Below, piece by piece: positions 3,519 through 55,991 of a stretch of 64,000 nucleotides of DNA. Numbering within the stretch: the first letter of the stretch is position 1; each line of letters opens with the position of its first letter. Origin of the DNA: Naegleria gruberi. Taxonomy: Eukaryota. The stretch lies in assembly GCA_000004985.1 (NCBI GenBank), contig GG738888.1; one strand, 5' to 3'. Both the position numbers and the translations under genes were made by a program. Under the pieces are notes generated by a model that saw only the letters and a list, made by a program, of their open reading frames with translations, did not search any database and had not been told where the DNA came from.

Positions 3519-3773
3519 TTTCTTCCACTTATTTTTTTAAAATCAAATTTTCGAAATTTTTATTGAACAAGCCTTTTAATTTGATATTCAAACAATTGGA
3601 TAATTAAAATTGAGGACCTTCAATAAGAAAACGTTAAGTTAGACGTCTCTTATCATAAAAGGAGTTTTGATATAACAATTTTCTCAAGTTTCCTTTGTAA
3701 TTGAACCACACATTGTTTCTTGCTCAGGAATTCTTCTTGTTCAATATTTTTAGCTCCTGCCGTTAATGAAAAA

Positions 3774-5894
3774 ATGAATGAAATCTTCTCTTCATCACGA
3801 TCAGGTGTTTACCACACAACCAACAAGAAGAAGGGACTGATGAATTCATCATCAACATCCTCAACTCATCACACAACAAGATGGCTCATATCTTCATTGC
3901 TATACTTGTTGATGTTCATTATTTTGTATAGAGTCAATGCTATGACACCCCAACAACAACAACAAACAATTCCTATCCACAACAATCTAAATGATAATAC
4001 TACACCATCTTCTTCGGATTCAATGTCCACTTCTACATCATATGACTACTTACAACATACACTCTCGAAGGAAAATGTAGCAGTTGTAGCAACAACATTG
4101 GCCACTCTAGCCTATGGATACAACAAACGTTTTGCTGATCAGACAGGAAGACTTTGGGATGGTCTTCAATCCTTTGTTTCTACTTCTTCCAAGTTAGCAA
4201 GTGATAGTGGTGTTGGTCCGGATGCTGCCTTTATTCAGAACAAGGAGTTTCTTGTTGGAAAGGCACAATTCGTGAAGAGTATTCTGGAGAAGAAGATTCA
4301 TCTATTGTTCTCGTGGAAAAACATGTTTACAGTGACCAAATGGGCTGTTATTGCAACTTCATCTGCTCAGACTGTCAAACTTGTTTATGAATTGTGGATT
4401 TATGAAGACATCTTTCAACATGCTGGGGAAACTTTACATAACTTTAAACATGATCAGAGGGAAATTTATGATCGGTTGAACGAACTCATTGATGTTTTGG
4501 AACAAATGTCCAATCTTGTTGTTACACAGGAAAGGTTTATTCCTTCATCATCGACTCCTTCAAAGTTATTTACAAGGTTGGGAGAGGCTACTAAATTAGA
4601 TGAAAGCTTTGAAAAGAATTTCATTAAATTGACCAAAAAGTTTACCAAGATTCAAGCCACTCTCCAAAAGGACATTGAAGGAATGCAAGCACAAATGGAA
4701 GAATTGAAGAGTAAGGTTCAGCAAGACTCTGCATTCTTTAAGAAGAGACAAGAGAAATCACTTACTAATACTTTTGTTGGAGCTTCTTGTTTGGCATTAA
4801 GTGTTGGAGCTTCTTTATTGTTCCCTCCAGCAGCACCTGCAATTCTTGCTTCACATGCTGGTGGTATTATCAGTTTATCAGTAGCTGGTATCAATTATGG
4901 TCTCTACTATTATTCAAACTCAAAGAAGGATAAGGCAGAATATAGATTGAAAGAAGTAGTAAAATTGCAAGAGCAAATTGGAAGTATTCGAAACCAATCA
5001 ATGGAATATTTGAATCATTATGAAGCTCAAAAGGCAGAAATTGTCAAATATATGAAGAAGTTGAGATCTGAGGACAAGAAGAAGAAATCCTTGTCGACAC
5101 TTTTACTACCAGCTATGCATGATTTCAACCCACTGGAGACTGAAAACTTGGAGCAACGACTTTGGAATATTGTGGGAATATACCAAGCAAATACTCTCCT
5201 GTTATGGTATCACTCTTTCCATTTCATTTTCCTAATGATGACACTTTTCACATTTGCCAAAAATGGGTTGAATATGTCAGCCAAGACATTGGTTGTATTG
5301 TTCTTCTATTGCGCTATCCTCCTCACCCTAGATATGGCTTACGATTTTAAAGAGAGCCGACAAACAACCTTAGATATCCATTTAGATACTTCCATTCTTT
5401 TTATTAAGGTTACTAAGCAAACATACGAGGAAAGATATAGGCATGAATGTATTTGGTATGAGCTTCCAGTCAGAAAACAATTAGAATTGGATTTAAAATC
5501 ATTGGTTCTTAAATTTGTTCCAGGATATTCAGATGTGGCAGATAGTCTTACTGCCACCAATGCCAGTGGTCATTTAATTCACAGCTCTAAATGTCTTCAC
5601 TACAAACAAGTTATGGAAAGTAATGATGATAGTGTGACCTCTAATTTGATTCAAACCAGTACTCATTCAATTGTTGGTGTTGATGTTAAACAAATCAACA
5701 ATCCATCAGAGATGTCCGGCAGTACATATTTTGATTTCATAAGCTCTGTATTTTTCAGACTAATCCGAACAGCAGCTGACTGTTGTGAAATTGTTTATGA
5801 AAGGACATCAATTGGTGCCAAGCTTTGCTTGGGAATGGCGCTAGCTTCCGTTCTATTTATTATTGCAAAGAGGATTGTTTGTTGTGGCTTGTAA
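3774..5894 (+). CDS. multi-pass membrane protein with central coiled-coil region (unknown function)
   Basis: Long ORF whose track start is TTG; the first in-frame ATG is at 3774. It has an N-terminal hydrophobic anchor and a poly-Q tract. A coiled-coil-like segment (KLTKKFTKIQATLQKDIEGMQAQMEELKSKVQ) sits between several predicted transmembrane helices. No homologue recognised. Confidence 0.45.
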   Translation: MNEIFSSSRSGVYHTTNKKKGLMNSSSTSSTHHTTRWLISSLLYLLMFIILYRVNAMTPQQQQQTIPIHNNLNDNTTPSSSDSMSTSTSYDYLQHTLSKENVAVVATTLATLAYGYNKRFADQTGRLWDGLQSFVSTSSKLASDSGVGPDAAFIQNKEFLVGKAQFVKSILEKKIHLLFSWKNMFTVTKWAVIATSSAQTVKLVYELWIYEDIFQHAGETLHNFKHDQREIYDRLNELIDVLEQMSNLVVTQERFIPSSSTPSKLFTRLGEATKLDESFEKNFIKLTKKFTKIQATLQKDIEGMQAQMEELKSKVQQDSAFFKKRQEKSLTNTFVGASCLALSVGASLLFPPAAPAILASHAGGIISLSVAGINYGLYYYSNSKKDKAEYRLKEVVKLQEQIGSIRNQSMEYLNHYEAQKAEIVKYMKKLRSEDKKKKSLSTLLLPAMHDFNPLETENLEQRLWNIVGIYQANTLLLWYHSFHFIFLMMTLFTFAKNGLNMSAKTLVVLFFYCAILLTLDMAYDFKESRQTTLDIHLDTSILFIKVTKQTYEERYRHECIWYELPVRKQLELDLKSLVLKFVPGYSDVADSLTATNASGHLIHSSKCLHYKQVMESNDDSVTSNLIQTSTHSIVGVDVKQINNPSEMSGSTYFDFISSVFFRLIRTAADCCEIVYERTSIGAKLCLGMALASVLFIIAKRIVCCGL

Positions 5895-7864: not shown

Positions 7865-7984
7865 GGCTACGGCCATATCACGATGAATGCACCTCATCCC
7901 GTCCGATTTGAGAAGTTAAGCATCGTCGAGACACATCAGTACTGAGGTTGGAGACAACTTGGGAACCTGTGGTGCTGTAGTCTT
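7865..7984 (+). rRNA. 5S ribosomal RNA gene (copy 1)
   Basis: 120 nt reading GGCTACGGCCATATCAC...CATCCCGTCCGATTTGAGAAGTTAAGC...GGTTGGAGACAAC..GGGAACCTGTGGTGCTGTAGTC, followed by a T-run Pol III terminator. All canonical 5S boxes are present. Confidence 0.85.
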
Positions 7985-8392: not shown

Positions 8393-10007
8393 ATGATCAC
8401 ACAACCAAACCATTCCATCACATCAAAGGGCACTGAAAATTTCCTATTCTCTGATGATTCTCTTTTTGAAATTTTATCTTTTCACAATGATTTTACATTT
8501 GTTGTAACCAGTTGTGCATTAGTTTCTAAACAGTGGTTTAATGTCGTTAAATATAATTGTAAACACCTCTCCCTATCACGTAATAGTGATGATCGGGAAA
8601 TGGTTGGTCAATTTTTGGAAAATATTGCAAATCTTGCAGTGAGAATGAATGGAGAAATTGGATTTAATTTACAGGTTTTGGATTCGATGAAAGAATTGAA
8701 AAAACTCAATTTAGAATACAATAATATTGATCCAAATGGAATTAAGTATTTAGGTTCACTGAAACAATTGACTGATCTCAATGTATCTTGCTGTTACATT
8801 GGATTGAATTTGAGTCATTTAATATTATTGAAAGCATTAACTCATCTTAATATAACTAGTAATAATATTCGTGCAGAAGGAGCCAAATACATTGGTGAAA
8901 TGAAGCAATTGACTAAACTTTCTATTGGCTCCAATGATATTGGCCCTGAAGGAGCCAAGTATATTAGTGGTCTTGAACAATTAACTTATCTTAATATCCG
9001 TTCAAATGATATTAAAAAAGATGGAGCAAAGCACATTAGTGAAATGAAACAGTTGACTTACCTTAATGTTGTTGGAAACCATATTTGTGATGGTGGAGCT
9101 AGATTTATAAGTGAAATGAAACAATTATCTAATCTTAGTGTTGGATACAATGATATTGGTGAGGAGGGAGCCAAGTATATCAGTGAATTGATGAATGTAA
9201 GCATACTTGATATTGGTGGCAATTCTATTAATGAGAAGGGAGCCAAGTTTATTGGTGAAATGAAACAATTAACGGATCTTAGAATTTATTGTTGCAACAT
9301 TGGAGTAGAAGGAACACAATACATTTCATCACTGAATCAATTAACTCATCTTTCTATAAGTACAAATAATATTGGGGATGAGGGAGCCAAGTACATTGGT
9401 CAAATGAAACAATTAACAGATCTTAGCATACGTGAAAATAAGATTGGAATTGAAGGAGCAAAATCTATTGGTCAATTGAAAAATTTACTTAACCTTTACA
9501 TTTCTGGCAATGAAATTGGAGATAATGGAGCCCAATTTATTAGTGAAATGAATCAATTGACTATACTTGATATTTCTAGTATTAATATTACACCAATAGG
9601 CATAAAATATATCAGCAACATGGAGTATTTAACTGACCTAAGGATTATTGATAATAATATTGATTCGATGGGTGCAAAATATCAGTCAAATGAAGCAATT
9701 AACAAGTCTTGATGTCTATAACAATACCATTGGTGTTGAAGGAGCTAAATATCTAAGTGAAATGGAACAATTAACTAATCTTGAGATACCAAACAATGAA
9801 ATTGGTGACAAAGGCGTACAATTCTTAAGTAGAATGAAGCAATTAACCAGACTTGACCTAAATGAAAATAAGATAAGCGATGAGGGTGCCATATTTATTC
9901 TGGAAATGAAGAATTTGATAGATCTAAGTGTATATCATAATGAGATCAGTGAGGATTTCACTGAACGTTTAAGAGAAATGAAACAGTTAACTTATCTTGA
10001 TATTTAA
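8393..10007 (+). CDS. RNI-like / NLR-type leucine-rich-repeat protein (stand-alone LRR), apparent 2-nt deletion frameshift near 9680
   Basis: About 20 tandem 28-aa repeats of the form 'L..L.I..N.IG.EGAKYI..MKQLT.L'. ORFs 8393..9712 and 9648..10007 carry the same repeat and differ by a missing 'AT' in ...GCAAAATAT[AT]CAGTCAAATGAAG (consensus GAKYISQMKQLT). ATG at 8393. Confidence 0.6.
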
Positions 10008-10134
10008 AATAGGAAAATCATTTTTCTAATAATCCCATTTCTCTTTGTAAACTGAGAAATACGTTTCGTACAAAATATTTGAAACAAGGATTTGGGAACT
10101 TGGCTTTTACTTCAATAATGCACTTTGATTTATT

Positions 10135-12915
10135 TCAAGTAAAAATTTTGGTGAGTGTCTCTGTTAGTATTCTCTTGGTTTCATCCAACAAATTTCCGTC
10201 TATTGGAGTCGAACGAACAGTCAACACTGAAACTGATTCTACCAACTTGTTTGATTTCTCAGTTAGTACAAAGTTAATGACAGGAATCTTGTTAATCTGA
10301 CATGCAGTGGCAACAGCTAATGTGCTTGGTGTTGGCGAACTTCCAACTAGAATAACAGCTGTTGCTTGTTGTTGTTGGATAGACATGTCAAAGTGATACA
10401 TGGTTTCAGCTGCAGAGCTCAGATTTGTTTGAGCTGTATCAAACTCTCTGCTCAACATGAAGTCATTGAACGACTTGAATTTTGTAATCTTGGATAATTC
10501 ATCCGAATCTATTTGGGCAATGGATTGATCGGCAACTCCCAGGCTATATTGAATAGTGAATGGTAACTCTAAACTACTTAACATTTTAAGAATAGTTCTT
10601 CCTTCATTTTGATTACTCAGGAAAACGAAAGCAGTTCTCAGATCATTATTTCGGTAAGAGTTCATTAATCTATTACCTCTCTGAGTTTCCTTTTGAATAA
10701 TAAGAGATCTTGCTTCACTGGTGCCTTGTACTCTTCCAGTTGTATCTCCATTATTACTAATTTGCATATAATCACCTGAATATGAATTTGTTTCTAGTGT
10801 TCGAGAAACTGGCATGACGAAACATCTTATATTGGCGTACTTTCTTGCATTGGAACATAGATGCCAGTCCTCTCCAGTGGCCCATGAGAACATCTTTTCT
10901 CTGAACAATAGTTTAACCCACTCCCTCTCCATGAACCAACTTCCACCGACAACATCCACCTCAATGATCTGTTCTGAACCAGAGACAGGTCCATAAAAAT
11001 AATCCTCAGCTGTTGGAGTTCCTTTCGTTCCAAGAATTCCTCTGTAATTATTGGTATTGATAGTGTGAATGGCTGCCTCTAAAAATCTCTTCTCAGGAAT
11101 GCAATCATCATCAAAAACAGCAATATACTTGGTTGGTGATTGTAGCGCAAGTTGAAATCTTCCAAAATATTTGAGCTGCATTTCTCCCTTATTGATAAAG
11201 AGTGAAATATTATTGGATGTGGCAAGTAACTTGGCCTCTTGTATTTCATTTTCAATCTCCTCTGCTTTAGGCGATGCAAAAAAGACCATCCAAACTACTT
11301 TAGGTTGATGAGTTTGTGAGAGGAGAGCTTGCATCCATCTCTTCACTAGACCTGTTCTCTTATACAAACCAACAACGACAGTGACAGAAAATTCATCAGA
11401 GGTCTTCGTTGCTGGAGTGTATGCGCTAGGTAATGCGAATAATTCTTGCATGGTGAGTGGATCTTTTGGTTTTGATCTTTCCAATAATTCCTTCTTTCTA
11501 CTTTCGAATGGTAAGAAATTTTGAGAGTAAACACTTTCTGCAATTGAATCTTGAATGAATTGAGTGGAACATTCACTAGATTCTGGTAATTTGGAGGTGA
11601 CAAAATCACGAACAATTTTTGAAATTCTCATGCTAGCTTTTCCATCTCCAAATATGTGTTTTGAAAGAATTAGTTTCGAATTTTGTGAATCCTTGATTGC
11701 GTCGGTCATGGCTTTCACAATGTGATGATAATTAACACCTATCTTTTTAATAGTTCCAATGTATATTCCCTCTGGTCTCTCAGTTGTATCTCGCATGAGT
11801 ATAACAGGTTTTCCAATACTTGCTGATTCCTCTTGAATGCCACCAGAGTCAGTAACCACAATGTCAGCTTCACTAATGACATGTGGAAAGATGTCATAGG
11901 CAATTGGATCAACTAGTTGGACATTATCCAAAGAAGATAACACTTCATGTACTACACTCTTAGCATTTGGATTTGGATGAACAGGTAGAATGACCATGAC
12001 GTTCTTACCAAATGTGTTGGAAATTGTTTTGATGGCATTACACATCTCTTTAAAGTGTGGAATGTTCTCTCTTCTGTGCATGGTAACAAGAATTACAGTT
12101 CGATGTGAAGATGTAGTCGCATCAACATGCTTGGTTTTAAAACTTCTGATGTTTTGAAGCAACTCTGGAATTATTTTTGGTGGGAGAGACTTTAAGGAAT
12201 AGAACGAATCAATACCAGTGTTACCAGTGACATGCACATGCTGTGGACAGATGCCTTCTCTAACAAGAGCTGCTTTAGAAAATTCTGTTGGAGCGAACAA
12301 GAGACTGGCAAACGAGTCAATCACTTTACGATTCAACTCCTCTGGGAATGGACTATTGAAATCATAAGATCTCAATCCAGCTTCTACATGTCCAACTGGT
12401 ATCTTTAAATAACTGGCTGCAAGGGCAGCAACAAGAGATGTAGTTGTGTCGCCTTGAACCAACACCATGGAGATTGGCCCTTGCTTTTCAAATTCTAAAC
12501 TAATCTTTTGGAAGGCAAGTGTGAAGAAAGAGGAGATGCTTTGATTGGGAGTCATTAACTTCAAGTCAATGTCCACATGTTGATGAAATACACCAAGAGT
12601 TTGCTTTAAAATCTCACTATGTTGACCAGTACTCAACACAATCACCTCCAATTCAGAGTGATGGTTTGACTTGAGATGTGAAATTAGTGGAGCACATTTG
12701 ATAGCTTCTGGTCTTGTTCCCAAAACTATGACTACTCTTGGCATGTTCTTCTTGTGAGGAATGAGAACACTTTCATGGTTTTCATTGGAATGTGGTCTGA
12801 CCAGAACAACATCTGAATCAATAGCTGACTTGTTAGTTCTCAATAGAAAAAAGAAAACGAAACTAATCACCAATAATGTTGCACACACAATAGCGAGCTT
12901 AAATATCTTACTCAT
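10135..12915 (-). CDS. type-II membrane protein: non-hydrolysing UDP-N-acetylglucosamine 2-epimerase (WecB/MnaA-type) domain fused to C-terminal DxD-containing glycosyltransferase-like domain
   Basis: 926-aa single exon with ATG at 12915. An N-terminal signal anchor (IVCATLLVISFVFFFLL) is followed by an epimerase core (VVIVLGTRPEAIKCAPLI ... VLVQGDTTTSLVAALAASYLKIPVGHVEAGLRS ... MHRREN ... DSGGIQEE). The C-terminal ~450 aa is unrelated and carries 'YIAVFDDDCIPEKRF' (DxD). Confidence 0.75.
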   Translation of the reverse strand: MSKIFKLAIVCATLLVISFVFFFLLRTNKSAIDSDVVLVRPHSNENHESVLIPHKKNMPRVVIVLGTRPEAIKCAPLISHLKSNHHSELEVIVLSTGQHSEILKQTLGVFHQHVDIDLKLMTPNQSISSFFTLAFQKISLEFEKQGPISMVLVQGDTTTSLVAALAASYLKIPVGHVEAGLRSYDFNSPFPEELNRKVIDSFASLLFAPTEFSKAALVREGICPQHVHVTGNTGIDSFYSLKSLPPKIIPELLQNIRSFKTKHVDATTSSHRTVILVTMHRRENIPHFKEMCNAIKTISNTFGKNVMVILPVHPNPNAKSVVHEVLSSLDNVQLVDPIAYDIFPHVISEADIVVTDSGGIQEESASIGKPVILMRDTTERPEGIYIGTIKKIGVNYHHIVKAMTDAIKDSQNSKLILSKHIFGDGKASMRISKIVRDFVTSKLPESSECSTQFIQDSIAESVYSQNFLPFESRKKELLERSKPKDPLTMQELFALPSAYTPATKTSDEFSVTVVVGLYKRTGLVKRWMQALLSQTHQPKVVWMVFFASPKAEEIENEIQEAKLLATSNNISLFINKGEMQLKYFGRFQLALQSPTKYIAVFDDDCIPEKRFLEAAIHTINTNNYRGILGTKGTPTAEDYFYGPVSGSEQIIEVDVVGGSWFMEREWVKLLFREKMFSWATGEDWHLCSNARKYANIRCFVMPVSRTLETNSYSGDYMQISNNGDTTGRVQGTSEARSLIIQKETQRGNRLMNSYRNNDLRTAFVFLSNQNEGRTILKMLSSLELPFTIQYSLGVADQSIAQIDSDELSKITKFKSFNDFMLSREFDTAQTNLSSAAETMYHFDMSIQQQQATAVILVGSSPTPSTLAVATACQINKIPVINFVLTEKSNKLVESVSVLTVRSTPIDGNLLDETKRILTETLTKIFT

Positions 12916-15089: not shown

Positions 15090-18000
15090 ATGTTAAAGTG
15101 GTGTGTCCTCATAATTATTCTTCTCTCAACCATTTTCACATCACATGCACAATATGTCACACAAACAGTGGCAGGTAATGGAATTTCCCAAAGTTTGGGA
15201 GATGGTTTTCTTGGAACACAAGCGAGTTTAAACAGTCCAAGAGATGTTGCTCTTGACATGTATGGTAACATGTACATAGCTGAAGAGAAGGCACACAAGA
15301 TTAGATTCATAAACAAGACAACAGGTATTATTTCAACATTGGTTGGAAATGGCATTGCTGGAAGTGTTGGAGATGGTGGATTGGCTATTAATGCACAATT
15401 ACATTTACCATTCTCTCTAGCAATTGATTCGACTGGTCAAAATTTGTTCATTTCTGACAGTGGAAACCATGTTATTCGTCACATTAACATGACAACACGT
15501 ATCATTTCAACTGTTGCTGGAACAATGCGTAGTCCTGGATTTGGTGGTGATGGAAATATTGCCACACAAGCACTATTAAACACTCCTAGAGGAATTAGAC
15601 TTGATTGGAAGGGAAACATTTATATTGCAGGTAGTGTAGTTTATTGACAATTTAATACTTACAATAATGCAAGATACTTCAAATTGTGCCATTAGAATGG
15701 TCAATAGAACTAATGGGCTCATTTCAACCATTGCTGGTAAGGGATCAATTTGTGGAACTAAATTATTAGGAAATGGTGGATTAGCAAATAGTACAACACT
15801 TTACAATCCGTTTGGTGTTGCGGTCGACTCATTTTTCAATGTTTATATTGCTGAGAGTTCTGCAAGTGTTATTCGATTTGTTGATAAATCAACAGGTATT
15901 ATTTCAACATATGCAGGTGATGGCTCTCCAGCATATAGCGGGGATGGTGTATTGGCAAGTCAAGCTAAATTGAATTATCCTAATTTTGTAACTATTGACA
16001 ACTTGTCAAATAATCTTTTAATTGCTGACACTGCTAATTTTGTAGTAAGATATGTGAATAGAACAACTAGAATTATATCGACCATTGCAGGATATAATGT
16101 TAATGGAAATAGTGGTGATGGTCTTCCAAGTAAGCAATCATCCTTTTCTTCCTTATTTGGAATAACAACAGACATGGAAGGAAATGTATACATTGTAGAT
16201 GCACCGAATTCTGTTGTTAGAATACTAATCAAAACATGTGATAGCTTATTATTTACCTGTAATAATCATGGTTCATGTCTTTCATCCCAAACTTGTAAAT
16301 GTAATTATGGATGGAGCACAGAAACATGTATCCAACCAACTTGTTTTGGTATTTTAGCAACCACTAATGTGGCATGTAGTGGACATGGAAAATGTTCATA
16401 TGTGGATTTATGTGAATGTGATATGGACTTTTTTGGTAATGAATGTGAATTCTTTAAATGTTATGGAATTAATTATAATAATCAATCTGTGTGCAGTAAT
16501 GGTAGAGGAAACTGTTCTTCACCAAATAATTGTACTTGTCAGAATAATTATTTTGGTAATGAATGTGAATTAACAACTTGTTATGGAATTGAAAGTAATA
16601 ATTCCAAAGTATGTTCTGGAAATGGTAAATGTATAGGAAAGGATGAATGCTCATGTATGAATGGGTATGTTGGCGACTATTGTCAGCATACTGTTTGCTT
16701 TGGTATTTATGGAAACGAAACATGTTCTTCTAGAGGAAGTTGTATAGCACCTGATAATTGTGAGTGTTTGGATGGCTACGGTGGCAGAGATTGTAGACAT
16801 TATGAAGTTTTTATGGATTTTGAAACTGTTTCCATTCATTCATCTCATCATCTGTTAATGAGAAAGTTAACAAGTGACTTATTGGAGTGTGGAGAGATAG
16901 TATCAGAATCGGATATATTAAAATTGGGGGAGAAAGATTCCCTTAAATGTTATTGGAGGGAATTAAGTGGATTTAGAATATATTTAGGCTATAATCATAA
17001 TATAACACATGGTTCAGTTTTAAATATCATGAATAATCTATTGACCATACATGTTAATGCATCTATTTCAGATCAAATTAGAAAAAGTAATGAAAATGGT
17101 GTTGTAATAGGATTTCCACTTGATGTATTTCCAACTAACAAGGATTTATTAATTAGATCTCAACATGATCAACACTATAATAATTTTAAATCAGTTTCCC
17201 AGAATTGGAAATTTTCTACAGTTATTCGTAATACAATTCATCCAATTCAAGAATTACTAGATAGAAACGATAACAAACCGATCGTTATCATTCCATCAAT
17301 TAATATTTCGGATCTTCAATCACTAACCATATCAACATTGACAATCAATGATTTATCAATTCAATCAACAAGTGAAAGAACATTTGCATTTGAGAAATCA
17401 AAGGATATTCCATCACAATTTAATATTTGGAATGAAATTAGTTCACAATCTTATTACCAAGATTGTATAGGACATAATTGTATAGTTGAATCAACATTAA
17501 TTGGAATGAAAACATCACTCACTTATTCTTTTAATGGATTTTTAATTGTAAAAAGTAAAGAATTTCAAAATAGACAAATATTTAGAATTACAAACAAAGT
17601 TGAAAATGATTTATTGAAAGAAAATTACAAAGGAACAATGCAAGTAGTAGGATTGAATTTAAATTCATACTCTTCTTCTTATTATCAAGTTGATTTGACA
17701 TATTCATCATTTGACATGTTGGATATTTATCTTGTTGGAATTAACAAGACATATTCTAGAAATGAGGCTATTGTTTTATCTACTTCTATTATTGATCCCT
17801 TTGTGTTTACCTACTCAGATATTAATAGTTTTAAACAAAGATGGTCATATCAAAATTCAATTACTAAACAATATGATTCAATTTTTGGAAGTCAGCTCTA
17901 TATTGCACCGCTACCTGTTGGATTATATGATATTTCGTTAAACGTAACTACGAAGTCCAATGTTTATACTTTTTATGGTAAAATTGATATTGTAAATTTT

Positions 18001-21000
18001 GAAAATATTCCATCTATTAACATTAAGCACGTTCCAGCAATTTATCCCTTTGGATCGAATATATATATTGAAATGTCTATAAAGAGCGACATTCCAATCA
18101 AGAAAATTCAATGGAAGTTACTAGAGGGAAAATTTGATAGCAAGCAATCACTAACTAACAATTATAATGAAATTCTAGAACAATCATTTAATCCAATCCC
18201 ACATTTTGTAAATACGCAACAATATATGTTAAATATTGAAAAAAAATATTTGATTGAGGGTGAAAGATATCAATTTCAAATAGTGGCATGGAATGAAAAT
18301 GGTCAATATGCTATCTCTAACATTTCAACACGTATTGATATGTCTCCTAGATTTTGGTGTGATATTTATGATCCAATTGGAGAAAATAAGGCATTTACCA
18401 GTACGTTTGTCGTTAATTGTGTGAATACTATTGCGGAGAGTGTATCTAGTTATTGGATTGATGTTTGGGATAATGATACAAGATTGATGATCTTGTCAAA
18501 TACTCAAAAAAGAACTTTTATTACAAAATTACCATTTACCAAATCTGGTTATTTGAATATTGGTATTAAACTTATCAATATGAATGGTTCATTTTCAAGA
18601 ATATTTAGAAAGGTGAAGGTTAATAATCCTATTTCTGATCTTTCACTACAATCTAGAATTAATTTTATTTTTTTAAATTTTAATATTATAATTGAAGAAC
18701 CTATTTCCATAGATACTATCATTAAACTATCTTGTCTTCTTTCTCTAATTGATAAGAATGATGATTTTACAGAATTAAATTCTGTTGATAAGAATATACT
18801 TGTAAAAAGTTTAACATTATTAATAACAAACTTGGATAAAATTCAACAAATTGCATTAAATGTTGATGACAAGCTAATTCAAATCATTCTTCCACTCCTT
18901 TCCAAAGTTACAACAATTATTCAACACATATCATTACAATCTATTAGTGAAACTGTATTATTACAAAATATTAAGTGGATAATAAGTGGTTACAAAAATA
19001 GTTTTCAATATTATTCTCCTTATATTATGAATCATTTATTAGATTTTACTCATGCTCAAGAATTGGAAACATTGTTTAAGACGTTATTGGTTAAAGGAGG
19101 TGGAATGAAGTCAACAGAAATGCTTCCGAATGTTGTTAATATTATACGCAGGTCCTATTTCAGTAGTGGGCTGGGTTTACAAAATCAAACAATTTCTAGA
19201 ATTTTCAATTCATTTGGAGCGAAGGGATTTTATGAAGAAATTGATACTGCATTACATTTATTAAATGGAAAACAATTCAATTTCCATTCTAATCAAGAGG
19301 ATATTCAAATAGATTTCAAAGTTTTAAACGATGTTCAATATAATCTAATTACTCCTTACAAAGTTAATTTGATTTCATATACTACCAAATCATATTTGAA
19401 CGTATCAGATAGTGTATCTTTGGCATTCATGTATGAGACTGGTGAGATAATACCTACTACAAGTTCTAAATATTCCACAGTTCAAATCAAATTCAATAAT
19501 GTGACACTAACTCTCGAAGAGGATAACATTTCATTATTGAAAGTTTTTTGTGTATCATATGATTATAGTAAGGATACTTGGAACACTGATGGAATTGAAA
19601 CGATATTTAATATTACACAAATCATGAATAGAACTATTACATTAAATGTAACTTGTCAATATCTATCATCTGTGGGCTTGACAACAATATCAATTCAAAA
19701 AGGTTTTTCAACCTACAGAAATACAAGTAGTAGTATTATTCCAAATACTCCACAATCAGATAAGATAATAGCGATTGTAGTGCCTATTTCAATATTGTTA
19801 CTCATTTCCATTTTAGTAATTCTAATATGTATAGGAATTTACTATTACAGAAGTAGATATTGGAGCAAAAGATTGAAAAATGAAAAAGAAATGGAACAAA
19901 AACTCTTAGAAATTGAATTGGAATTGAATGATAAAAACCCTCAACCCATATCCTATCTAATTCCCATTGAAGAATTGGAGTTGATAAAAAAGATTGGAGA
20001 AGGAGGGTTTGGCCAAGTTTACCTTGCAAAATGGAAACATGTTCAAGTTGCAGTGAAATGTGTCAGTAATTATGAAGATGAAGAACAAATAGAACAATTC
20101 AACGGAGATGATATGGAAGATGCATTTGAAAAGGAAGTTTTATTGTTAAATAGTTTAAAACATCCAAATGTTATTCACTTTTTTGGAGTTTGTCTTACTC
20201 AAACTAAAAAGTTAATGATTATGGAATATTTGGAAGGTGGGTCATTGGATAGAATTGTTTCAGAACTTCGTTTAAAAAGAAGGAAAATGTTATTGAGAGA
20301 AAAGATTAGAATATTGTTTGGTGTTTCGAATGGAATGAGTTATTTACACAATTTGAAACCTTCATCTATTATTCATAGAGATCTCAAGACGGCAAATATT
20401 CTACTTGATAATTACATGCAACCAAAAGTGTGTGATTTTGGATTATCAAAATTGATTGGAAATAATAATTCAACAACAATGACTACTAATTTAGGAAGTA
20501 TTTTTTATATGGCAGTAAGTGTTACTATATTACTATTTGCTAATTATGGATAGCCTGTAAGTTTTTTGTCGATATGGATGCGATTTAAATATTAAGGAAT
20601 TAATTGGAGATGGCTATCAAAATATTACAAACAAACTTGATGTGTACAGTTTTGGAATTATCATGTATGAACTCTTCTTTGAGGAAAATCCATTCCTTAA
20701 TCAAAATTCAAAGAAAATTCATCGGTTCTCCTCCAATTCATCATCTTCATCAAGCTCGTCAGAACAATCAATGGAATTGAATAGTTTTAGCGTACCTGTT
20801 CGAGTATTGAATGGAGTTAGACCTAAAATACCCTTCTCTAATATGATTGAACAAAGACAGTGGATATCAGAGTTTATGAGTGACGATTATGACCATGAAA
20901 AGAAGAGTGATATGAAAACAATCAATGATTTGTGTAAACTTGTGGATGATTATATCATGTTGATGAAAATGTGTTGGGATGTTGATCCTGAAAAAAGACC

Positions 21001-21058
21001 ATCTTTTGATGAAATAGGACAATATTTGGCTGATGTAATGTCTAACTATCAACTTTAA
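15090..21058 (+). CDS. receptor-like TKL protein kinase: signal peptide, NHL-repeat beta-propeller, tenascin-type EGF-like repeats, large ectodomain, TM helix, cytoplasmic kinase; exons 15090..15630, 15674..20514, 20554..20556 (3-nt microexon), 20597..21058
   Basis: NHL motifs (YIAEEKAHKIRFINK, FISDSGNHVIRHIN, YIAESSASVIRFVDK). A 43-nt GTAGTG..AAG intron (15631..15673) restores 'IYIA-D-TSNCAIRMVNR'. EGF repeats of the form C.C..G(W/Y).G..C. TM helix IIAIVVPISILLLISILVILICIGIYYY. Kinase motifs GEGGFGQVY, HRDLKTANILL, DFGLS, ...YMA|P|ELIG.., DVYSFGII, with introns 20515..20553 and 20557..20596. Confidence 0.75.
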
Positions 21059-26295: not shown

Positions 26296-27394
26296 ATGTT
26301 GTTGTGGTACGATTTAGTGTGGATGGTGTTGTTGCCTCTCTCTTTCTTGTTGTTTGCTTTCTACTATTTAAAGAGAGAACAATTAGTGGAGAAATCGAAT
26401 AGAAATTTTGAGTATGAGGGAGAAGATAGACTCTTTCTTATTAAACCACCAAGTAGAATAGTGGATCTCCCAAAGAATAGGTCTATAGATGAAGTTTTAT
26501 CTAGTGTGAAAATTAAAATGTTATCCTATAATAAATTATCATTGGACCAGGGAAAGAAACTAGTCGAAAGGTTATCGGAAAGAAGATATTTCAATTCTCT
26601 TCAATATTTGTGTTTAGTAAGTGTGTAATTATCTATGGAATTTATTGAATAACATCTTTCAACAGTCAAGACCTCAATATACTTGCTCATGTTCTCTTAC
26701 AACTTTGACATCTGTTTGGAATTATTTATTTACTTCAATGGGATGTGGTGATTTACCTCCATTATGTCAGGAAGATGTTATTTCATTAATGGGATTTGAT
26801 GAACCTTTCGATGATATTAGTTTTGGTAAATTGGCTTCAAACAAACGTAAGTTTAGTTTAGTTTAGTTGTAAATAATTGGAAATAGAGGATGCTTTAGTA
26901 AGTTGATCAAACAATGTGGAATTATTAATTTTATCAAAAAGTGGTTCTATACATTGTGTTCTTTATTCAAAGTTAGAGGAAGATCTTCCATGGTGTGGAA
27001 GAAACAAGGCGAAAACAATACGAAAGGTAGAACAAGAGAACAGGTAATGTCTATCATTAAACAAGGACTGAAATCAAAAACTTGTTCATTTGTCTATCAC
27101 ATGCACCATCATGTTTGTTTAATTGTAGGCTATGAAGAAACACCCATTGATCCGACACTATCCTATTCTAAACTAAACCTTTCATCAGATGAAAAGAACA
27201 CTTGGCTCATTGTTGGTGATATTTCATCCAAACTCTCACCTCTAATCTCTGTTTCATTGGATGACATAGAAAGAGACTTGTCAACTCAACCTCCTCAATA
27301 CCTCGACGTTAGACATTTGAATGATGGTTTGAAATTTGATGAAACGTTAAGCTCAAATCCCAACTGCATCATAATGTATGAGCATTGTGTGTGA
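26296..27394 (+). CDS. phytochelatin synthase-like (glutathione gamma-glutamylcysteinyltransferase / peptidase C83 fold) protein; exons 26296..26616, 26666..26846, 26973..27394
   Basis: Joined exons give ..LQYLCL|SRPQYTCSCSLTTLTSVWNYL.. (compare PCS '[25 protein letters not shown]'), ..YHMHHHVCLIVGYEE.. (PCS 'GHFSPIGGY'), and ..WLIVGDIS (PCS 'ALILDV'). Introns are GTAAGT..CAG of 49 nt and GTAAGT..CAAAG of 126 nt. The phase-1 join was checked. N-terminal TM segment; ATG at 26296. Confidence 0.5.
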
Positions 27395-36447: not shown

Positions 36448-36567
36448 AAGACTACAGCACCACAGGTTCCCAAGTTGTCTCCAACCTCAGTACTGATGTG
36501 GCTCGACGATGCTTAACTTCTCAAATCGGACGGGATGAGGTGCATTCATCGTGATATGGCCGTAGCC
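36448..36567 (-). rRNA. 5S ribosomal RNA gene (copy 2, inverted relative to copy 1)
   Basis: Its reverse complement matches copy 1 at 119 of 120 positions (A to C at ...GTCGAG[A/C]CACATCAG). T-run terminator and a related 3' flank (GTGG(A/G)TACAATTTA). Confidence 0.85.
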
Positions 36568-43233: not shown

Positions 43234-43307
43234 TACGCCGTAAGGGAGTCGAACCCTTGACCTTCAGCGTGTAAAGCTGACGATCTAACCAACTGATCTA
43301 ACGGCGC
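43234..43307 (-). tRNA. tRNA-Val (anticodon UAC)
   Basis: 74-nt cloverleaf: acceptor GCGCCGT/ACGGCGT, D-stem GATC/GATC, anticodon stem TCAGC/GCTGA with loop TTTACAC, T-arm AAGGG-TTCGACT-CCCTT, discriminator A. Confidence 0.8.
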
Positions 43308-44230: not shown

Positions 44231-45175
44231 TTTTTTTGAAAATGTTTTCTTTTCGTTGTTGAAGCGTAAAGTTCAAATTTTTATCTTCACCGATCTGCAA
44301 CTATTTTCTTAAATTTCTTTACAGTTAATTTCGCGCCAACTAAAAACCGCTGAAAGTTGTCTATTCTTACCGTTAAATATTCAACAAAAAAAAAACAATT
44401 ACTCATCATGATTTCATCACCATGAGGAAAGTTCTCCCTTTTCTTCCTTCCACATCAGCCATGACCACATTCAAACCATAACAACATCTATATAAATTTG
44501 CCTGCCATTTACCAGGAAGATGTTGGTACACATTATAGTGAAGGTTCATGAACCGAAGTACATTATTGCTAGAAGAACACGCATATAATTGATACTTTGG
44601 AACAGCCCTGTCTCACTCTCTTTGATATGTTTTTCTATTTTGTAAAGAAGGATTGACTGGTCTAGGTAAGAATAGTGAAAAGGTAACTTTGAAAGAATAT
44701 CGCTGGTGGATACATTGTGGAGAGTTTTGATTCTTTGGAAGAAATTCCAATCACTGAAGATTTATACCGATTAAAATAAACACTGTAACACTATCCATCT
44801 CAATTTAAGAAACTTTATTCTAATCTCTATAAAACAATTCCCAATTTAATACAACACAAATTACCCAAATTTCAATCAAAAACATTTCACACCTTCAACA
44901 AACTTTTTCATCCCTCACTTTTTATCTGAAACTTTTACTGTTTGCAAGTGAAACACGAAACACCAAATTGCACCTTCGCATTCTAAAAATAAAATTATAT
45001 CAATCATCAACATGTTCATCGCTTGTTCATAAAATGCAGACGCAATCAATGCTGATTATCACAGATCAAAAAAAAACGCAACAATTTTTCTTCGCGGCGA
45101 CGATTTTAATTTCTTTTTCCTATTAATTTCTTCTTTCTGTGCACACAACTACTTTTAAACCAACTCTCTCTGAAA

Positions 45176-46629
45176 ATGATCACTACACATCAATGTGCTC
45201 CATCGAATGCTACTACTGGATCAGCTCGTCTTGATTTATTCTTTAAAGCTGCTCGTGGTATTGAAGAAAGTTTCTTGTTGCAATTGGTTGAAGCTTCATG
45301 GAATGAAAATCCATTAGATACTTTAAAGTTAATTTTCCAAACACGTGATTGTCGTGGAGGAAAAGGAGAACGTGAAATTTTTCACAAGTGTTTGAACTGG
45401 TTGATTGACAATCACCCAGAAGATTTACTTGTCAATTTGGAACTTTTACCAGAATATGGTAGATGGGAAGATTTGTTGAGATATATCAATCAAGAAAAGG
45501 GAAAGATTGGTGAAACAATTTCCAAGCTCTTTGCTGAACAATTACGTAAAGATTATGCTGCTATGCATGATGGAAAGCCAGTTACTTTATGCGCCAAGTG
45601 GGCACCAACTGAGAATTGTAAACATGACAAGAAGTTTAGTGCTGTGAAACTTATTGCTAAAGAACTCGGAATTAAAAAGGCAGAATATAGAAAGCAATAT
45701 CTTTCACCACTCCGTGAATATATCAAGGTTGTTGAAAGATACATGTGTTTGAAGCAATGGGATGCTATTGATTATTCCAAAGTTCCAGGTAATGCCATGA
45801 ATAAGCTCAAAAAGGCATTCAACAAGCATGATCCTGAAAGATTTGCCGAATATATGAAAAAGTTAGAAAAGGGTGAAACAAAGGTCAATGCCACAACTGT
45901 TGAGCCACACGAAATTGTAGCTCAATTCATGTATGGACAAGCACAATCTGAAACTGATCAAATTTTGGAATCTCAATGGAAGGAAATTGTCAAACGTGTC
46001 CAATCTCTTGGAAACATGGATCATGCATTGGCAGTTGTGGATGTATCAGGATCAATGAGTGGAACACCACTCAAGTAGCAATTTCCATTGGGCTGTTGGT
46101 GTGTGAATTATCAATGCCACCTTTCAGAGGAAAATTGATTTCTTTCCATGAAGATCCTCAATTCTGTACCATCAATCTCAACACTACTTTACGTGAAAGA
46201 GCTCAAGAAATCATGCTTATGCCATGGGGTATGTCTACAAACTTTTACAAGGTCTTTGAAACAATTTTGAGAGAGGCCAAGCAAAATAAGTTGACTCAAG
46301 ATGAAATGCCAACTTCCATCTATGTCATTTCTGATATGCAATTCGCATCTGCTGCTGGTAGTTCAATGAGCAATTTGGAATATATCAAAAAGTCCTATGC
46401 TGAAGCTGGTTATGAATTGCCAAAACTCATTTTTTGGAATGTCAATGGTAATTCTCGTGATTTTGTCAGTGGTAATGCTCTTGAAAATAATGTTGCCATG
46501 ATTTCTGGTTTCTCACCATCTCTTCTCAAAGCTGTTTTGAATGGTGATGATTTTACCCCATTTGCTATCATGATGAAGGCCATTCAAGATGAAAGATATT
46601 CCAAGATTAAATTGGCCAGCTCTGAATAA
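45176..46629 (+). CDS. DUF2828-family / vWA(MIDAS)-like protein; 1-nt deletion frameshift near 46068-46078
   Basis: ORFs 45176..46078 and 45976..46629 are joined at ..LAVVDVSGSMSGTPL|VAISIGLLVCEL.. (MIDAS-like DxSxS). ATG at 45176. About 940 bp of upstream intergenic DNA. Confidence 0.5.
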
Positions 46630-46771
46630 GCAAATTGACCTTATCAAAGTAGATAATGTTTGTAAAAAAACAAAAAATCCTTATTAAAAAGTAAAAACTC
46701 CAAAAAAGTACTCTACAATTTCTTTTTAGTTCTTTTTTGTGAATTTTTTTAAGTGAAAACAGTAGAAAAAA

Positions 46772-48690: not shown

Positions 48691-48717
48691 AGAACTTACC
48701 TTTACAAAATACAAGAA

Positions 48718-49985
48718 TTAAAATAATGCCTTGTAAACATTCATTAAAAACTCTTGATCAAATAAAATCATTTCAACATTGAATTTCATCCAATCTACAT
48801 CAAACTTTCGTTTGGCAGCTCTAATCACAAGTTTCAAAACAATTTCTCTATCCTCCACAATATCCTCACCAAGATAATCTATTTTTTCCACAATCTTGAA
48901 TAATTTCTCATAGGGCTGGTCAAGTGCAAAGAGTACAGTTTCCTTACTATTCCTAAATAGAGAAGCAGCAAATTTTAGAGCATATCCATTCGATTTGATG
49001 GCCTCCATTACAATATTGTTGTCGTAGGAGCAATCACTATTCAATAATCTGAGATTCAAACCATCTCTCCGCACATATTCCAATAATTCTTCCAAAGTTG
49101 TTTCCTGAGATAGTATAAAATCACAGGGAGAGTATGGGCTATCAAGGAGTGAACATCTTTTCTTAGATGGAGAATTGAGAAATTCATGGATAGAATCCAC
49201 CTCCACATATAGCTTTCGTTTGTGAGATGGTATAAACTTAATAGAATCACTATTTTGCTTCAAGGCTTCTGAAATTACGTCATCATTCATTAATTCATCA
49301 GGTACATGCTTGATTACAAATCCATTCACTTTAACAGCATCCATCACAAATGATTTGTCCTGAAATAGTTTTGTCATTAATCGACAAGATTCCAAATTTT
49401 TCACACTTTCCAAAGCAATTTCCCTATCCAAATGAAACTTTTTCTGAAACCAATGTAAACAACTATTATTGACCATCAATGATCTCTTCACAAATTCTCT
49501 ATCATTCTGTAACTTTTTCGAAGCAAACGTAACAGCAAAATGATAATTTCGAATAGCTGCCAACATGATCTCCCAATCATTCCTAAAATTCATCGTTAAC
49601 TTCTTCACATCATTCGCAGTAAGAGTTTTATATTGCAATAATAGTTGCAATACTAATTCCCTTGAGATGTAACCACCTCCCATCCCATCAAATTCTCTCG
49701 TAAACGATCCAATAAATTCACACTTTGCAACACAGCCTGATCAAAACAAATTCGGGAGATGAGAAAAGCTAAAACCTGATTACATAAATCTATTCTCTGC
49801 CTCCGATGATAGAGTTGGAGAAGTATATCGGATTGGAATGATTGATCGAGTAATAGTATTACATTGTCAATATTATGATCGGAGGATGATGATTTATTTT
49901 CCTTTAGTCTTTTGCAAGACTCTTCGGAATTGATTTGAAAAGTTTCATCATCACTTTGCAAGAAACATTCACGATTTCTTTTCAT
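48718..49985 (-). CDS. DUF4116-repeat protein; 1-nt deletion frameshift in GGG run near 49672-49690
   Basis: Repeats of the form (D/N).E.VL.A(V/I)K.NG.ALK(F/Y)A..(L)..(D/N). ORF 49653..49985 (N-terminal part) and 48718..49683 are joined at ..RENLMGW|GGGYISREL... ATG at 49985. Confidence 0.5.
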
Positions 49986-50256
49986 TTTTTTTAAATTAAT
50001 TTTTTTTGAATTAAAATTGAAAAATCATTTATGGAAATTTAATTTGAGATAGAAAGACCAATTCAAATTATTAAGTTTAGGGGTAGGTTGAAAGAGAAAA
50101 AATTATTGCAAAATGGGGTTTCGAAAGAAGTTGAAAGTTTATACAATAAAAAAATTGAGATGGATTTTTCTATTTACATATCTCCATCTATTGAATAAAT
50201 ATAAATCTGAAATCTAATCTTGATAAGTTAGATTCTAGGGTATAGTACAATTAGAT

Positions 50257-55826: not shown

Positions 55827-55991
55827 TTTTTTTGTTTGTGCGTTGAATATTGAATGTTGAGTTGTTGTCACGGTTTTGTGGTGCAGCAACCTTGAAATGG
55901 AAGGAGCAGAAATTGCTAATATAGAAGTTATGGTTTAGTTGGTAGAATTAGTAAGTTAGACTGAATTAGTTTATAAATACAAACTTTTAAA

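What the first reader, a model, noticed from the sequence alone, without database searches (positions are those of the whole stretch)
20515..20596. 3-nt microexon (CCT = Pro of the kinase APE motif) flanked by two ~40-nt introns
The kinase reads ...SIFYMA|gtaagtg..atag|CCT|gtaagtt..attaag|ELIGDGYQNITNKLDVYSFGII. Treating 20515..20596 as a single intron would delete the invariant Pro of A-P-E. It would also give an 82-nt intron, whereas most introns I could place in this window are 31-53 nt. Two introns of 39 and 40 nt flank a perfectly consensus AG|CCT|GTAAGT microexon.
Basis: seen in the sequence. Interest (0 to 1): 0.55.

Follow-up and report, generated by a model that had tools for sequence, protein, structure and literature searches.

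The report
Three-base exon in a kinase gene
A receptor-kinase gene of an amoeboflagellate relative of Naegleria and Willaertia very probably carries a 3-base exon, one proline codon between two 40-base introns; such tiny exons are already known in animals and plants, so it is mainly a neat gene-structure case and an annotation trap.

Summary
The sequence is exactly as described: ...TAT ATG GCA | GTAAGTG...GGATAG (20515-20553, 39 nt) | CCT (20554-20556) | GTAAGTT...ATTAAG (20557-20596, 40 nt) | GAA TTA ATT.... It lies in the kinase domain of a 1948-aa receptor kinase (15090-21058, + strand) from a heterolobosean.

Only two splicing patterns keep the frame. One is a single 82-nt intron, giving YMA-ELIGD. 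The other is two introns around CCT, giving YMAPELIGD.

Evidence for the 3-nt exon:
- The closest homologue, in Willaertia magna, has no intron here and reads ATGGCTCCAGAATTAAT (YMAPELIGD).
- Of 118 homologues, 109 have Pro at this position, 9 have another residue and none has a gap.
- Pfam kinase scores rise by 10.5-12.9 bits when Pro is included.
- AG-NNN-GTAAGT occurs once in 128 kb, at this spot; chance is about 1e-4, or at most about 3e-6 with a Pro codon.
- 39 and 40 nt sit at the low end of the usual local intron sizes (38-53 nt).
- Two Naegleria paralogues have an intron exactly at the intron-2 position.

Caveats: no transcript data exist. Pro is not invariant in this subfamily. Introns of 76 and 112 nt occur nearby, so the length argument is weak.

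Verdict: probably a real microexon (about 0.8), a new member of a known kind.

The parts
15090..21058 (+). Whole coding region of the host gene (ATG to TAA). The product is 1948 aa: signal peptide, teneurin-like NHL repeats, EGF repeats, a long uncharacterised ectodomain, one transmembrane helix and a TKL-type protein kinase.
   Evidence: The spliced model gives one open frame of 1948 codons with a single terminal stop. Pfam hits: Pkinase 4.7e-56, PK_Tyr_Ser-Thr 1.9e-51, TEN_NHL 2.5e-30, EGF_TEN and EGF_2. The signal peptide and transmembrane helix are my reading of the translated sequence; no predictor was run.
15631..15673 (+). First intron of the gene, 43 nt, GTAGTG...GCAAG, phase 1.
   Evidence: It joins ORF 15090-15647 to ORF 15667-20553 and restores the NHL-repeat motif NIYIADTSN.
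15674..20514 (+). Large exon ending ...GGA AGT ATT TTT TAT ATG GCA (GSIFYMA). It holds the kinase motifs GEGGFG, VAVK, HRDLKTAN and DFG.
   Evidence: Translation.
20515..20553 (+). Intron 1, 39 nt, phase 0, between the Ala and Pro codons. Donor GTAAGTG, acceptor ATAG. The acceptor's TAG is an in-frame stop if the intron is retained.
   Evidence: Sequence. ORF 15667..20553 ends at this TAG. There is no AG between the donor hexamer and the acceptor.
20540..20544 (+). CTAAT, a candidate branch-point motif of intron 1. The branch A at 20543 lies 10 nt upstream of the acceptor G. This part is inferred only.
   Evidence: Read directly from the sequence. Other local introns carry loose TTAAT, CTAAA or ATAAC motifs 9-18 nt before the acceptor (intron list). 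No experimental support.
20554..20556 (+). Proposed 3-nt exon CCT, encoding the Pro of the kinase A-P-E motif.
   Evidence: It is the only CC dinucleotide in 20515-20596. It restores YMAPELIGD, which matches the W. magna homologue. It adds 10.5-12.9 bits to the Pfam kinase scores.
20557..20596 (+). Intron 2, 40 nt, phase 0, between the Pro and Glu codons. Donor GTAAGTT, acceptor TTAAG. An in-frame TAA at 20593-20595 stops translation if the intron is retained.
   Evidence: Sequence. The same intron position occurs in N. fowleri P0004 (123 nt) and N. lovaniensis P0032 (68 nt). AAG acceptors end 4 of the 12 other local introns.
20597..21058 (+). Last exon: ELIGDGYQNITNKLDVYSFGIIMYELFFEENPF...CWDVDPEKRPSFDEI...NYQL, then the stop.
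   Evidence: Translation; 82% identical by tblastx to the W. magna homologue over its first 45 codons (20597-20731).

Best explanation
CCT at 20554-20556 is a real internal exon of 3 nt. The pre-mRNA carries two separate, very short U2-type GT-AG introns of 39 and 40 nt. Removing both joins GCA-CCT-GAA and yields the canonical activation-segment motif ...GSIFYMAPELIGD... of an otherwise intact TKL receptor kinase.

The acceptor AG of intron 1 and the donor GT of intron 2 are only 3 nt apart. The complexes that recognise them cannot sit there together, so the introns must be removed one after the other by intron definition (inferred). While one intron is spliced, its still-unspliced neighbour simply serves as exon sequence. 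Either order works on paper.

In evolutionary terms, intron 2 sits at a position shared with Naegleria paralogues and is probably old in this kinase subfamily. Intron 1, one codon upstream, was seen only in this gene among the homologues examined and is probably a later gain (inferred). That gain left one codon stranded as an exon.

Shown: the sequence anatomy, the frame logic, the homology support and the improbability of the pattern arising by chance. Inferred: actual use of both introns in vivo, the order of removal, and the evolutionary history.
For: 1. Only two in-frame solutions exist. Reading through intron 1 stops at TAG 20551-20553. Reading through intron 2 stops at TAA 20593-20595.
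2. The closest homologue, W. magna (L002 9981-11090), covers the whole kinase domain in one tblastn segment at 59% identity. It reads GSILYMAPELIGDENQKITNKLDVYSFGIIMYE. At the DNA level, TATATGGCT CCA GAATTAATAGG aligns with TATATGGCA|CCT|GAATTAATTGG.
3. Of 118 homologues aligned across this position, 109 have Pro, 9 have another residue and none has a gap. The paralogues L008, L009 and window 51361-55889 keep the same spacing.
4. Pfam Pkinase scores 196.4 bits with Pro and 183.5 without. PK_Tyr_Ser-Thr scores 183.2 and 172.7.
5. AG-NNN-GTAAGT is unique in the window. Simulated chance is 0.8-1.8e-4, and at most about 3e-6 with CCN.
6. The local intron catalogue has 10 of 12 introns at 38-53 nt and 9 of 12 starting with GTAAGT. 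GTAAGTG and GTAAGTT are the commonest extensions. Acceptors include TAG and AAG. The 46-nt intron in the glycerol-3-phosphate dehydrogenase gene was validated against W. magna P0122.
7. The intron-2 position is conserved in N. fowleri (YMAR|gtaagt..cag|EM) and N. lovaniensis (YMSN|gtaagt..tag|EM).
8. Contig L009 comes from the same metagenome assembly as L007, which is 98.2% identical to the window. On L009, a paralogue has a 45-nt exon between introns of 53 and 50 nt, so what is probably the same species already handles small exons with tiny introns.
9. Microexons of 3 nt and even 1 nt, with strongly conserved GTRAGT donors and frequent misannotation, are documented in plants and animals (PMC8831610, read; PMC6314551, listed).
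Against: There is no RNA evidence. No protein more than 59% identical to this kinase exists in the 5.8-billion-protein collection, and no transcriptome of the organism was found. Exact look-ups of the C-terminal ORF found nothing.

No other gene examined has the same two-intron arrangement, so conservation of the microexon itself could not be tested.

Pro is replaceable in this subfamily (N, R, V and HFE variants), so selection on this residue may be weaker than in most kinases.

Introns of 76 and 112 nt exist nearby, so an 82-nt intron is mechanically possible.

Intron 2 has only a weak branch-point-like motif (TTTAAAT). Both introns are at the lower edge of the local size range, where the minimum seen is 38 nt.
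Confidence: 0.8

Rival explanations
1. There is a single 82-nt intron (20515-20596). The internal AG-CCT-GTAAGT is ignored, and the mature protein reads YMA-ELIGD, one residue short in the activation segment. Most automatic gene predictors would output this model.
For: It is frame-compatible (one search lists it as the ORF-joining solution). Introns of 76 and 112 nt occur in the window. The Pro position tolerates substitutions in this subfamily.
Against: None of 118 homologues has a deletion at this position. The product loses 10.5-12.9 bits against the Pfam kinase models. The spliceosome would have to skip a consensus acceptor 39 nt downstream and a perfect GTAAGT donor. An in-phase AG-CCN-GTAAGT arising by chance has a probability of at most about 3e-6. 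The W. magna coding DNA aligns with the CCT included.
Confidence: 0.07
2. The microexon is spliced alternatively. Both mRNAs are made, one with CCT and one without. This gives an APE kinase and an A-E variant with an altered or disabled activation segment, possibly as a regulatory switch.
For: Both patterns keep the frame. Microexons in animals are typically alternative, and a 3-nt microexon changes ligand specificity in cytohesin-1 (PMC6314551). Plant microexons also show partial inclusion (PMC8831610).
Against: Nothing in the sequence points to regulation. Both internal sites are full consensus, which favours constitutive use. No structured RNA element is present (z = +1.05). I know of no report of the microexon regulators of animals (SRRM3, SRRM4) outside animals (background knowledge, not tested).
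Confidence: 0.1
3. The region is not spliced productively. The gene would be a decaying pseudogene, or there would be an assembly error, and the apparent splice signals would be meaningless.
For: Some family members are clearly degenerate: N. lovaniensis P0016 lacks the catalytic loop. The family is large and turns over quickly.
Against: The gene has 1948 codons without a stop apart from the introns. All catalytic motifs are intact (GEGGFG, VAVK, HRDLKTAN, DFG, DVYSFG, CW..RP). The first intron restores an NHL repeat precisely.
Confidence: 0.03

Closest known systems
Ultra-short coding microexons of plants and animals, such as the 3-nt exon of cytohesin-1 (one Gly) and the 1-nt exons of plant APC11 and VPS55
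   Same: An internal exon of no more than 3 nt, with canonical GT-AG sites on both sides and a strong GTRAGT donor directly after it. It encodes part of a conserved protein motif, is easily missed by annotation, and is thought to need ordered removal of the two flanking introns (PMC8831610; PMC6314551).
   Different: This one is in a heterolobosean (Discoba), where a full-text search found no report of microexons. The flanking introns are only 39 and 40 nt, so the whole unit is 82 nt. Homologues in related genera (Willaertia, Naegleria) lack the arrangement, so it looks young, unlike the deeply conserved plant and animal cases. No transcript evidence exists yet.
Recursive splice sites (ratchet points, zero-length exons) in long Drosophila and vertebrate introns
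   Same: An acceptor AG is followed almost at once by a regenerated GTAAGT donor, and splicing proceeds stepwise.
   Different: A recursive site juxtaposes AG|GT with nothing kept and serves to remove very long introns. Here 3 nt are kept in the mRNA and the introns are tiny. This comparison rests on background knowledge and was not tested here.
Spliceosomal twin introns (stwintrons) of fungi
   Same: Two short introns in immediate proximity that must be removed in sequence.
   Different: In a stwintron the inner intron interrupts a splice signal of the outer one and no exon lies between them. Here both introns have complete signals of their own and a codon separates them. This comparison rests on background knowledge.
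EGF-repeat/transmembrane TKL receptor kinases of Heterolobosea (Naegleria, Willaertia, Acrasis)
   Same: The host gene belongs to this expanded family. Its best hits are all heterolobosean (40-59% identity), with the same C-terminal signature ...FFEENP(F/Y)LN...RPxIPF...CW...RP.F. EGF repeats plus a transmembrane helix were seen directly in the W. magna homologue and in Pfam hits on Acrasis kona proteins.
   Different: No close orthologue was found. Intron positions around APE differ between members: none, M|A, x|E, or here A|P plus P|E.

Membership tests
Microexon (internal exon of 30 nt or less; here the extreme class of 3 nt or less) | Bounded upstream by a canonical acceptor (AG) and downstream by a canonical donor (GT), each belonging to a complete intron | tested here: met
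   ATAG|CCT|GTAAGT. Intron 1 is GTAAGTG...ATAG (39 nt) and intron 2 is GTAAGTT...TTAAG (40 nt). Both match local donor and acceptor usage and lie at the low end of the local size range.
Microexon (internal exon of 30 nt or less; here the extreme class of 3 nt or less) | Inclusion keeps the reading frame and restores sequence that homologues have | tested here: met
   GCA-CCT-GAA gives YMAPELIGD, identical to the uninterrupted W. magna homologue. 109 of 118 homologues have Pro and none has a gap. Inclusion adds 10.5-12.9 bits on Pfam.
Microexon (internal exon of 30 nt or less; here the extreme class of 3 nt or less) | Presence of the exon in mature transcripts | not testable with these tools
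   No transcriptome or cDNA of this organism is in the collections. Only a metagenomic DNA contig of the same species was found.
Microexon (internal exon of 30 nt or less; here the extreme class of 3 nt or less) | Conservation of the exon and its flanking introns in orthologues | tested here: inconclusive
   No orthologue is available. Among paralogues and homologues, the intron-2 position is shared by two Naegleria genes. The intron-1 position was not seen elsewhere; the nearest is M|A in N. lovaniensis P0008.
Eukaryotic protein kinase, TKL-like (Pfam PF00069 / PF07714) | Kinase domain above the Pfam gathering score, with catalytic motifs (Gly-loop, VAVK Lys, HRD, DFG, APE) | tested here: met
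   Pkinase scores 190-196 bits against a cut-off of 31.7. GEGGFG, VAVK, HRDLKTAN and DFG are visible. APE is complete only if the 3-nt exon is included.
Recursive splice site (zero-length exon) | Acceptor AG directly abutting a donor GT, with no nucleotide retained | tested here: not met
   Three nucleotides (CCT) lie between AG and GT, and homology requires that they be kept.
Stwintron (spliceosomal twin intron) | An internal intron interrupts the donor, branch or acceptor signal of the outer intron | tested here: not met
   Both introns have their own intact GTAAGT donor and NAG acceptor. Neither signal is split.
Introner or other repeated mobile intron element | The intron sequence recurs at other loci | tested here: not met
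   blastn-short of each intron against the window and nine related loci found only chance matches of 14 nt or less. The two introns share only GTAAG and TATGGAT. The whole genome was not available.

The most novel reading that the evidence does not exclude
The spliceosome of a heterolobosean (Discoba) routinely processes an 82-nt unit made of a 39-nt intron, a 3-nt exon and a 40-nt intron. The unit arose recently, when a new intron was gained one codon upstream of an older family intron, inside the codon triplet for the kinase APE motif.

If confirmed by RNA, it would be the first documented microexon in this supergroup, as far as my full-text search shows. It would also be one of the most compact exon-intron arrangements known. 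Whether the exon can be skipped to produce an A-E kinase with a crippled activation segment, acting as a splice-controlled on/off switch, would then become directly testable.
Probability: 0.45. Interest if true: 0.55.

Novelty: new member of a known kind. Interest (0 to 1): 0.4.

Why it matters
Practical consequence: gene predictors will almost certainly annotate one 82-nt intron and a kinase lacking the APE proline. The same error may be hidden in other genes of short-intron protists, as was shown to be pervasive for plant microexons (PMC8831610).

Mechanistic consequence: an exon smaller than the footprint of either splice-site complex, flanked by introns close to the local minimum length, constrains models of intron-definition splicing and implies ordered intron removal.

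Evolutionary consequence: the mix of intron positions around one motif in paralogues (none, M|A, x|E, and A|P plus P|E) is a small natural experiment in intron gain or sliding in a lineage where little is known about intron dynamics.

None of this changes a major paradigm. Its value is as a clean, testable example.

Tried and rejected
- I looked for an annotated or transcript-derived copy of the protein. The best hits were only 45-59% identical, so no gene model or cDNA of this gene exists in the collection.
- Exact look-ups of the C-terminal ORF with two possible start codons found nothing.
- N. gruberi P0002, which reads YIGNEG at the motif, could not be fetched, so its gene structure stays unchecked.
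- The JGI metagenome scan with the kinase region gave one irrelevant 26%-identity locus.
- There is no synteny with the W. magna locus, so W. magna P0025 is the nearest homologue but not a proven orthologue.
- I looked for a second example among paralogues from the same species or its relatives. L009, L008 and window 51361-55889 have no intron at the motif.
- An RNA structure bridging the splice sites was ruled out (z = +1.05).
- The introns are neither duplicates of each other nor copies of a mobile element.
- A possible 9-nt exon at 26889-26897 (AG...GTAAGT) was rejected. The read-through frame stays open, and by my own manual reading of the sequence shown, a second intron there would run into a stop.
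- GTAAGT as such is not enriched in the window (27 observed, 22.3 expected). The argument therefore rests on its position, not its frequency.
- Literature searches for microexons in Naegleria or Heterolobosea, and for the metagenome project PRJEB11402, found nothing relevant.
Full report
**1. What is in the sequence**

Positions 20500-20610 read ATT TTT TAT ATG GCA | GTAAGTGTTACTATATTACTATTTGCTAATTATGGATAG | CCT | GTAAGTTTTTTGTCGATATGGATGCGATTTAAATATTAAG | GAA TTA ATT GGA GAT GGC. The two intron-like stretches are 39 nt (20515-20553) and 40 nt (20557-20596), and the piece between them is CCT (20554-20556).

**2. The host gene**

The site lies in a gene running from ATG 15090 to TAA 21056-21058 on the + strand.
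- A first intron of 43 nt (15631-15673, GTAGTG...GCAAG, phase 1) joins two ORFs and restores an NHL-repeat motif.
- The spliced product is 1948 aa with a single terminal stop.
- Pfam finds teneurin-like NHL and EGF domains and, at the C-terminus, a protein kinase domain: Pkinase 4.7e-56 and PK_Tyr_Ser-Thr 1.9e-51.
- My reading of the sequence adds a signal peptide, a long uncharacterised ectodomain and one transmembrane helix before the kinase.
- All catalytic motifs are intact: GEGGFG, VAVK, HRDLKTAN, DFG, DVYSFG and CW..RP. This is not an obvious pseudogene.

**3. The organism**

- The best kinase hits are all from Heterolobosea (Naegleria gruberi, N. fowleri, N. lovaniensis, Willaertia magna, Acrasis kona), and none exceeds 59% identity.
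- A glycerol-3-phosphate dehydrogenase gene in the window is 71% identical to that of W. magna.
- That same gene is 99% identical to an ORF on an ENA metagenome contig (ERZ929261, run ERR1078381). The contig is 98.2% identical in DNA to window 44491-50040.
- The window therefore comes from a heterolobosean related to Willaertia and Naegleria. Its genome is not annotated in the collections, but the species does occur in that metagenome.
- No transcript data for it were found.

**4. The frame logic**

Reading through intron 1 ends at TAG 20551-20553, which is the end of ORF 15667..20553. After CCT, reading through intron 2 ends at TAA 20593-20595. Between the outer sites there is no AG apart from those inside the two GTAAGT hexamers and the two acceptors. 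CCT is also the only CC dinucleotide in the stretch.

Only two patterns keep the frame:
- (a) one 82-nt intron, giving YMA-ELIGD;
- (b) two introns with CCT retained, giving YMAPELIGD.

**5. Protein-level test**

- I aligned the 120 best homologues. 118 cover this position: 109 have Pro, 9 have another residue (5 N, and one each of R, V, A, E), and none has a gap.
- Three further paralogues also keep the spacing: window 51361-55889 on the minus strand (YMHFE), L009 from the same metagenome as the window's species (YMSPE), and L008 from a Logan assembly (YMSPE).
- With Pro, the kinase domain scores 196.4 bits on Pkinase and 183.2 on PK_Tyr_Ser-Thr. Without it, the scores are 183.5 and 172.7.
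- Pro is not strictly invariant in this subfamily, but a one-residue deletion has no precedent among the homologues.

**6. The closest homologue**

In W. magna (L002), the whole region from the transmembrane helix to the C-terminus is a single uninterrupted tblastn segment (9981-11090, 59% identity). It reads GSILYMAPELIGDENQKITNKLDVYSFGIIMYE. Its DNA, GGAAGTATTTTATATATGGCT CCA GAATTAATAGGTGAT, aligns base for base with the window's exon end + CCT + next exon, GGAAGTATTTTTTATATGGCA|CCT|GAATTAATTGGAGAT. The loci are not syntenic, so this is the nearest homologue and not a proven orthologue.

**7. Splice-signal and size test**

I built an intron catalogue for the window from ORF continuity. It has 12 introns of 38, 41, 42, 43, 44, 46, 47, 49, 49, 53, 76 and 112 nt.
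- Nine start with GTAAGT. The next base is G in three, T in three and A in three.
- Acceptors are TAG (4), AAG (4), CAG (3) and GAG (1).
- Two introns were confirmed by homology: the 46-nt dehydrogenase intron against W. magna P0122, and the 47-nt intron inside the HRD motif of the second kinase.

Both proposed introns fit this picture in donor form (GTAAGTG, GTAAGTT), acceptor (TAG, AAG) and size. Intron 1 also has a good CTAAT branch-like motif 10 nt from its acceptor; intron 2 has only TTTAAAT.

In L009, a kinase paralogue has a 45-nt exon between introns of 53 and 50 nt. L009 comes from the same metagenome assembly as the 98%-identical contig L007, so it is probably from the same species. 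Small exons with tiny introns are then normal for this organism.

**8. Chance**

GTAAGT itself is not enriched (27 observed, 22.3 expected). AG-NNN-GTAAGT, however, occurs exactly once in 128 kb, at this site. In 400,000 simulated 82-nt introns per background model, an internal AG-NNN-GTAAGT leaving two halves of at least 30 nt appeared at 0.8-1.8e-4. With a Pro codon in the middle it appeared 0 to 1 times.

**9. Intron positions in the family**

| Gene | Structure at the motif |
|---|---|
| N. fowleri P0004 | YMAR\|GTAAGT...(123 nt)...CAG\|EM |
| N. lovaniensis P0032 | YMSN\|GTAAGT...(68 nt)...TAG\|EM |
| N. lovaniensis P0008 | YM\|GTAGGT...(61 nt)...AAG\|APELL |
| W. magna, L008, L009, second window kinase | no intron at the motif |

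The first two have a phase-0 intron directly before the Glu codon, which is exactly the position of intron 2. P0008 has an intron one codon upstream of the position of intron 1. Intron 2 therefore looks like an older family intron. Intron 1 looks like a later addition or a slid intron that stranded one codon. This history is inference.

The two introns are not copies of each other and do not resemble anything else in the sequences I hold. No RNA structure stands out.

**10. Mechanism**

Shown: two complete sets of splice signals, 3 nt apart.

Inferred from general knowledge of spliceosome footprints, and from the discussion of plant microexons in PMC8831610: the acceptor complex of intron 1 and the U1 complex on the donor of intron 2 cannot occupy the site at once. 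The introns are therefore removed one after the other by intron definition, each treating the unspliced neighbour as exon. The exonic bases next to local donors show no consensus. Recognition evidently rests on the intronic GTAAGT, which is why a 3-nt exon can be tolerated.

**11. Comparison with what is known**

Microexons of 3 nt (cytohesin-1, PMC6314551) and even 1 nt (plant APC11 and VPS55, PMC8831610) are established. They are typically misannotated and are followed by strong GTRAGT donors. The present case is a member of that kind.
- It differs from recursive splice sites, which retain no nucleotide.
- It differs from stwintrons, which have a split splice signal and no exon between the introns.
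- A full-text search found no report of microexons in Naegleria or Heterolobosea.
- Its special points are the lineage, the extreme compactness (82 nt in all) and its apparent youth.

**12. Verdict**

It remains unproven without RNA. My probabilities are:
- about 0.8 that CCT is included in the main mRNA;
- about 0.1 that it is alternatively included;
- about 0.07 for a single 82-nt intron;
- about 0.03 for a non-functional locus.

Novelty: a new member of a known kind. Interest is moderate (0.4): a tidy, directly testable curiosity with practical weight for annotating short-intron protist genomes.

Noticed in passing
window 51361-55889 (-): A second receptor kinase of the same family, with many teneurin-like EGF repeats, a transmembrane helix and a TKL kinase. 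Its activation segment reads GTLFYMHFEENGN, so HFE replaces APE, and there is no intron there. It has a 47-nt phase-2 intron inside the HRD motif (51887-51933). The same intron position occurs in the paralogue on L009.
   Followed up: partly
window 44491-50040; L007 (ENA ERZ929261, run ERR1078381, project PRJEB11402): A metagenome contig is 98.2% identical in DNA to this part of the window. The unidentified heterolobosean, or a very close strain, is therefore present in that public metagenome. A kinase paralogue (L009) comes from the same assembly. No paper mentioning the project was found.
   Followed up: partly
L002 8001-11102 (Willaertia magna GCA_041937235.1, protein P0025): The deposited gene model skips most of the kinase domain. 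The DNA nevertheless encodes an uninterrupted, intact domain (tblastn 9981-11090). This is probably a misannotation in the public record.
   Followed up: partly
L009 3708-3855: A 45-nt exon (GMKYLHGLNPVIIH, 3761-3805) is flanked by introns of 53 nt (GTATGT...AAATAG) and 50 nt (GTAAGT...AATTAG) in a paralogue from the same metagenome assembly as L007, so probably the same species. Small exons with tiny introns would then be routine there.
   Followed up: yes
window 7865-7983 (+) and 36449-36567 (-): Two dispersed 5S rRNA genes (Rfam 99 and 105 bits) lie on opposite strands between protein-coding genes, not in a tandem array.
   Followed up: no
window 43234-43307 (-) and 51210-51290 (+): tRNA-Val (TAC) and tRNA-Ser (AGA) genes. 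The Ser gene sits just downstream of the second kinase gene.
   Followed up: no
window 26847-26903 (+): A 42-nt intron (26847-26888) is followed after 9 nt by another GTAAGT (26898), which looks superficially like a 9-nt microexon. The read-through frame stays open, and by my own manual reading of the sequence shown a second intron would run into a stop, so this is probably coincidence. It was not checked against homologues.
   Followed up: partly
window, 12 catalogued introns (e.g. 15631-15673, 48134-48179, 59584-59636, 62417-62457): AAG acceptors are common: 4 of the 12 catalogued introns, plus intron 2 of the finding. The exon bases before the donor show no consensus. Splice-site recognition seems to rest almost entirely on the intronic GTAAGT.
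   Followed up: partly
window 10135-12915 (-): One 926-aa ORF combines a UDP-N-acetylglucosamine 2-epimerase domain (2.4e-95) with a family-2 glycosyltransferase domain. This is an unusual fusion for a eukaryote and a possible bacterial acquisition.
   Followed up: no
L005 about 2860-2960 (N. lovaniensis P0016): This family member has lost the catalytic loop, DFG and most of the activation segment. The sequence goes from ...LKPNPVV straight to ...EMIEGDVKYNHKVDVYSF. It is a naturally truncated or degenerate kinase in the same family.
   Followed up: no
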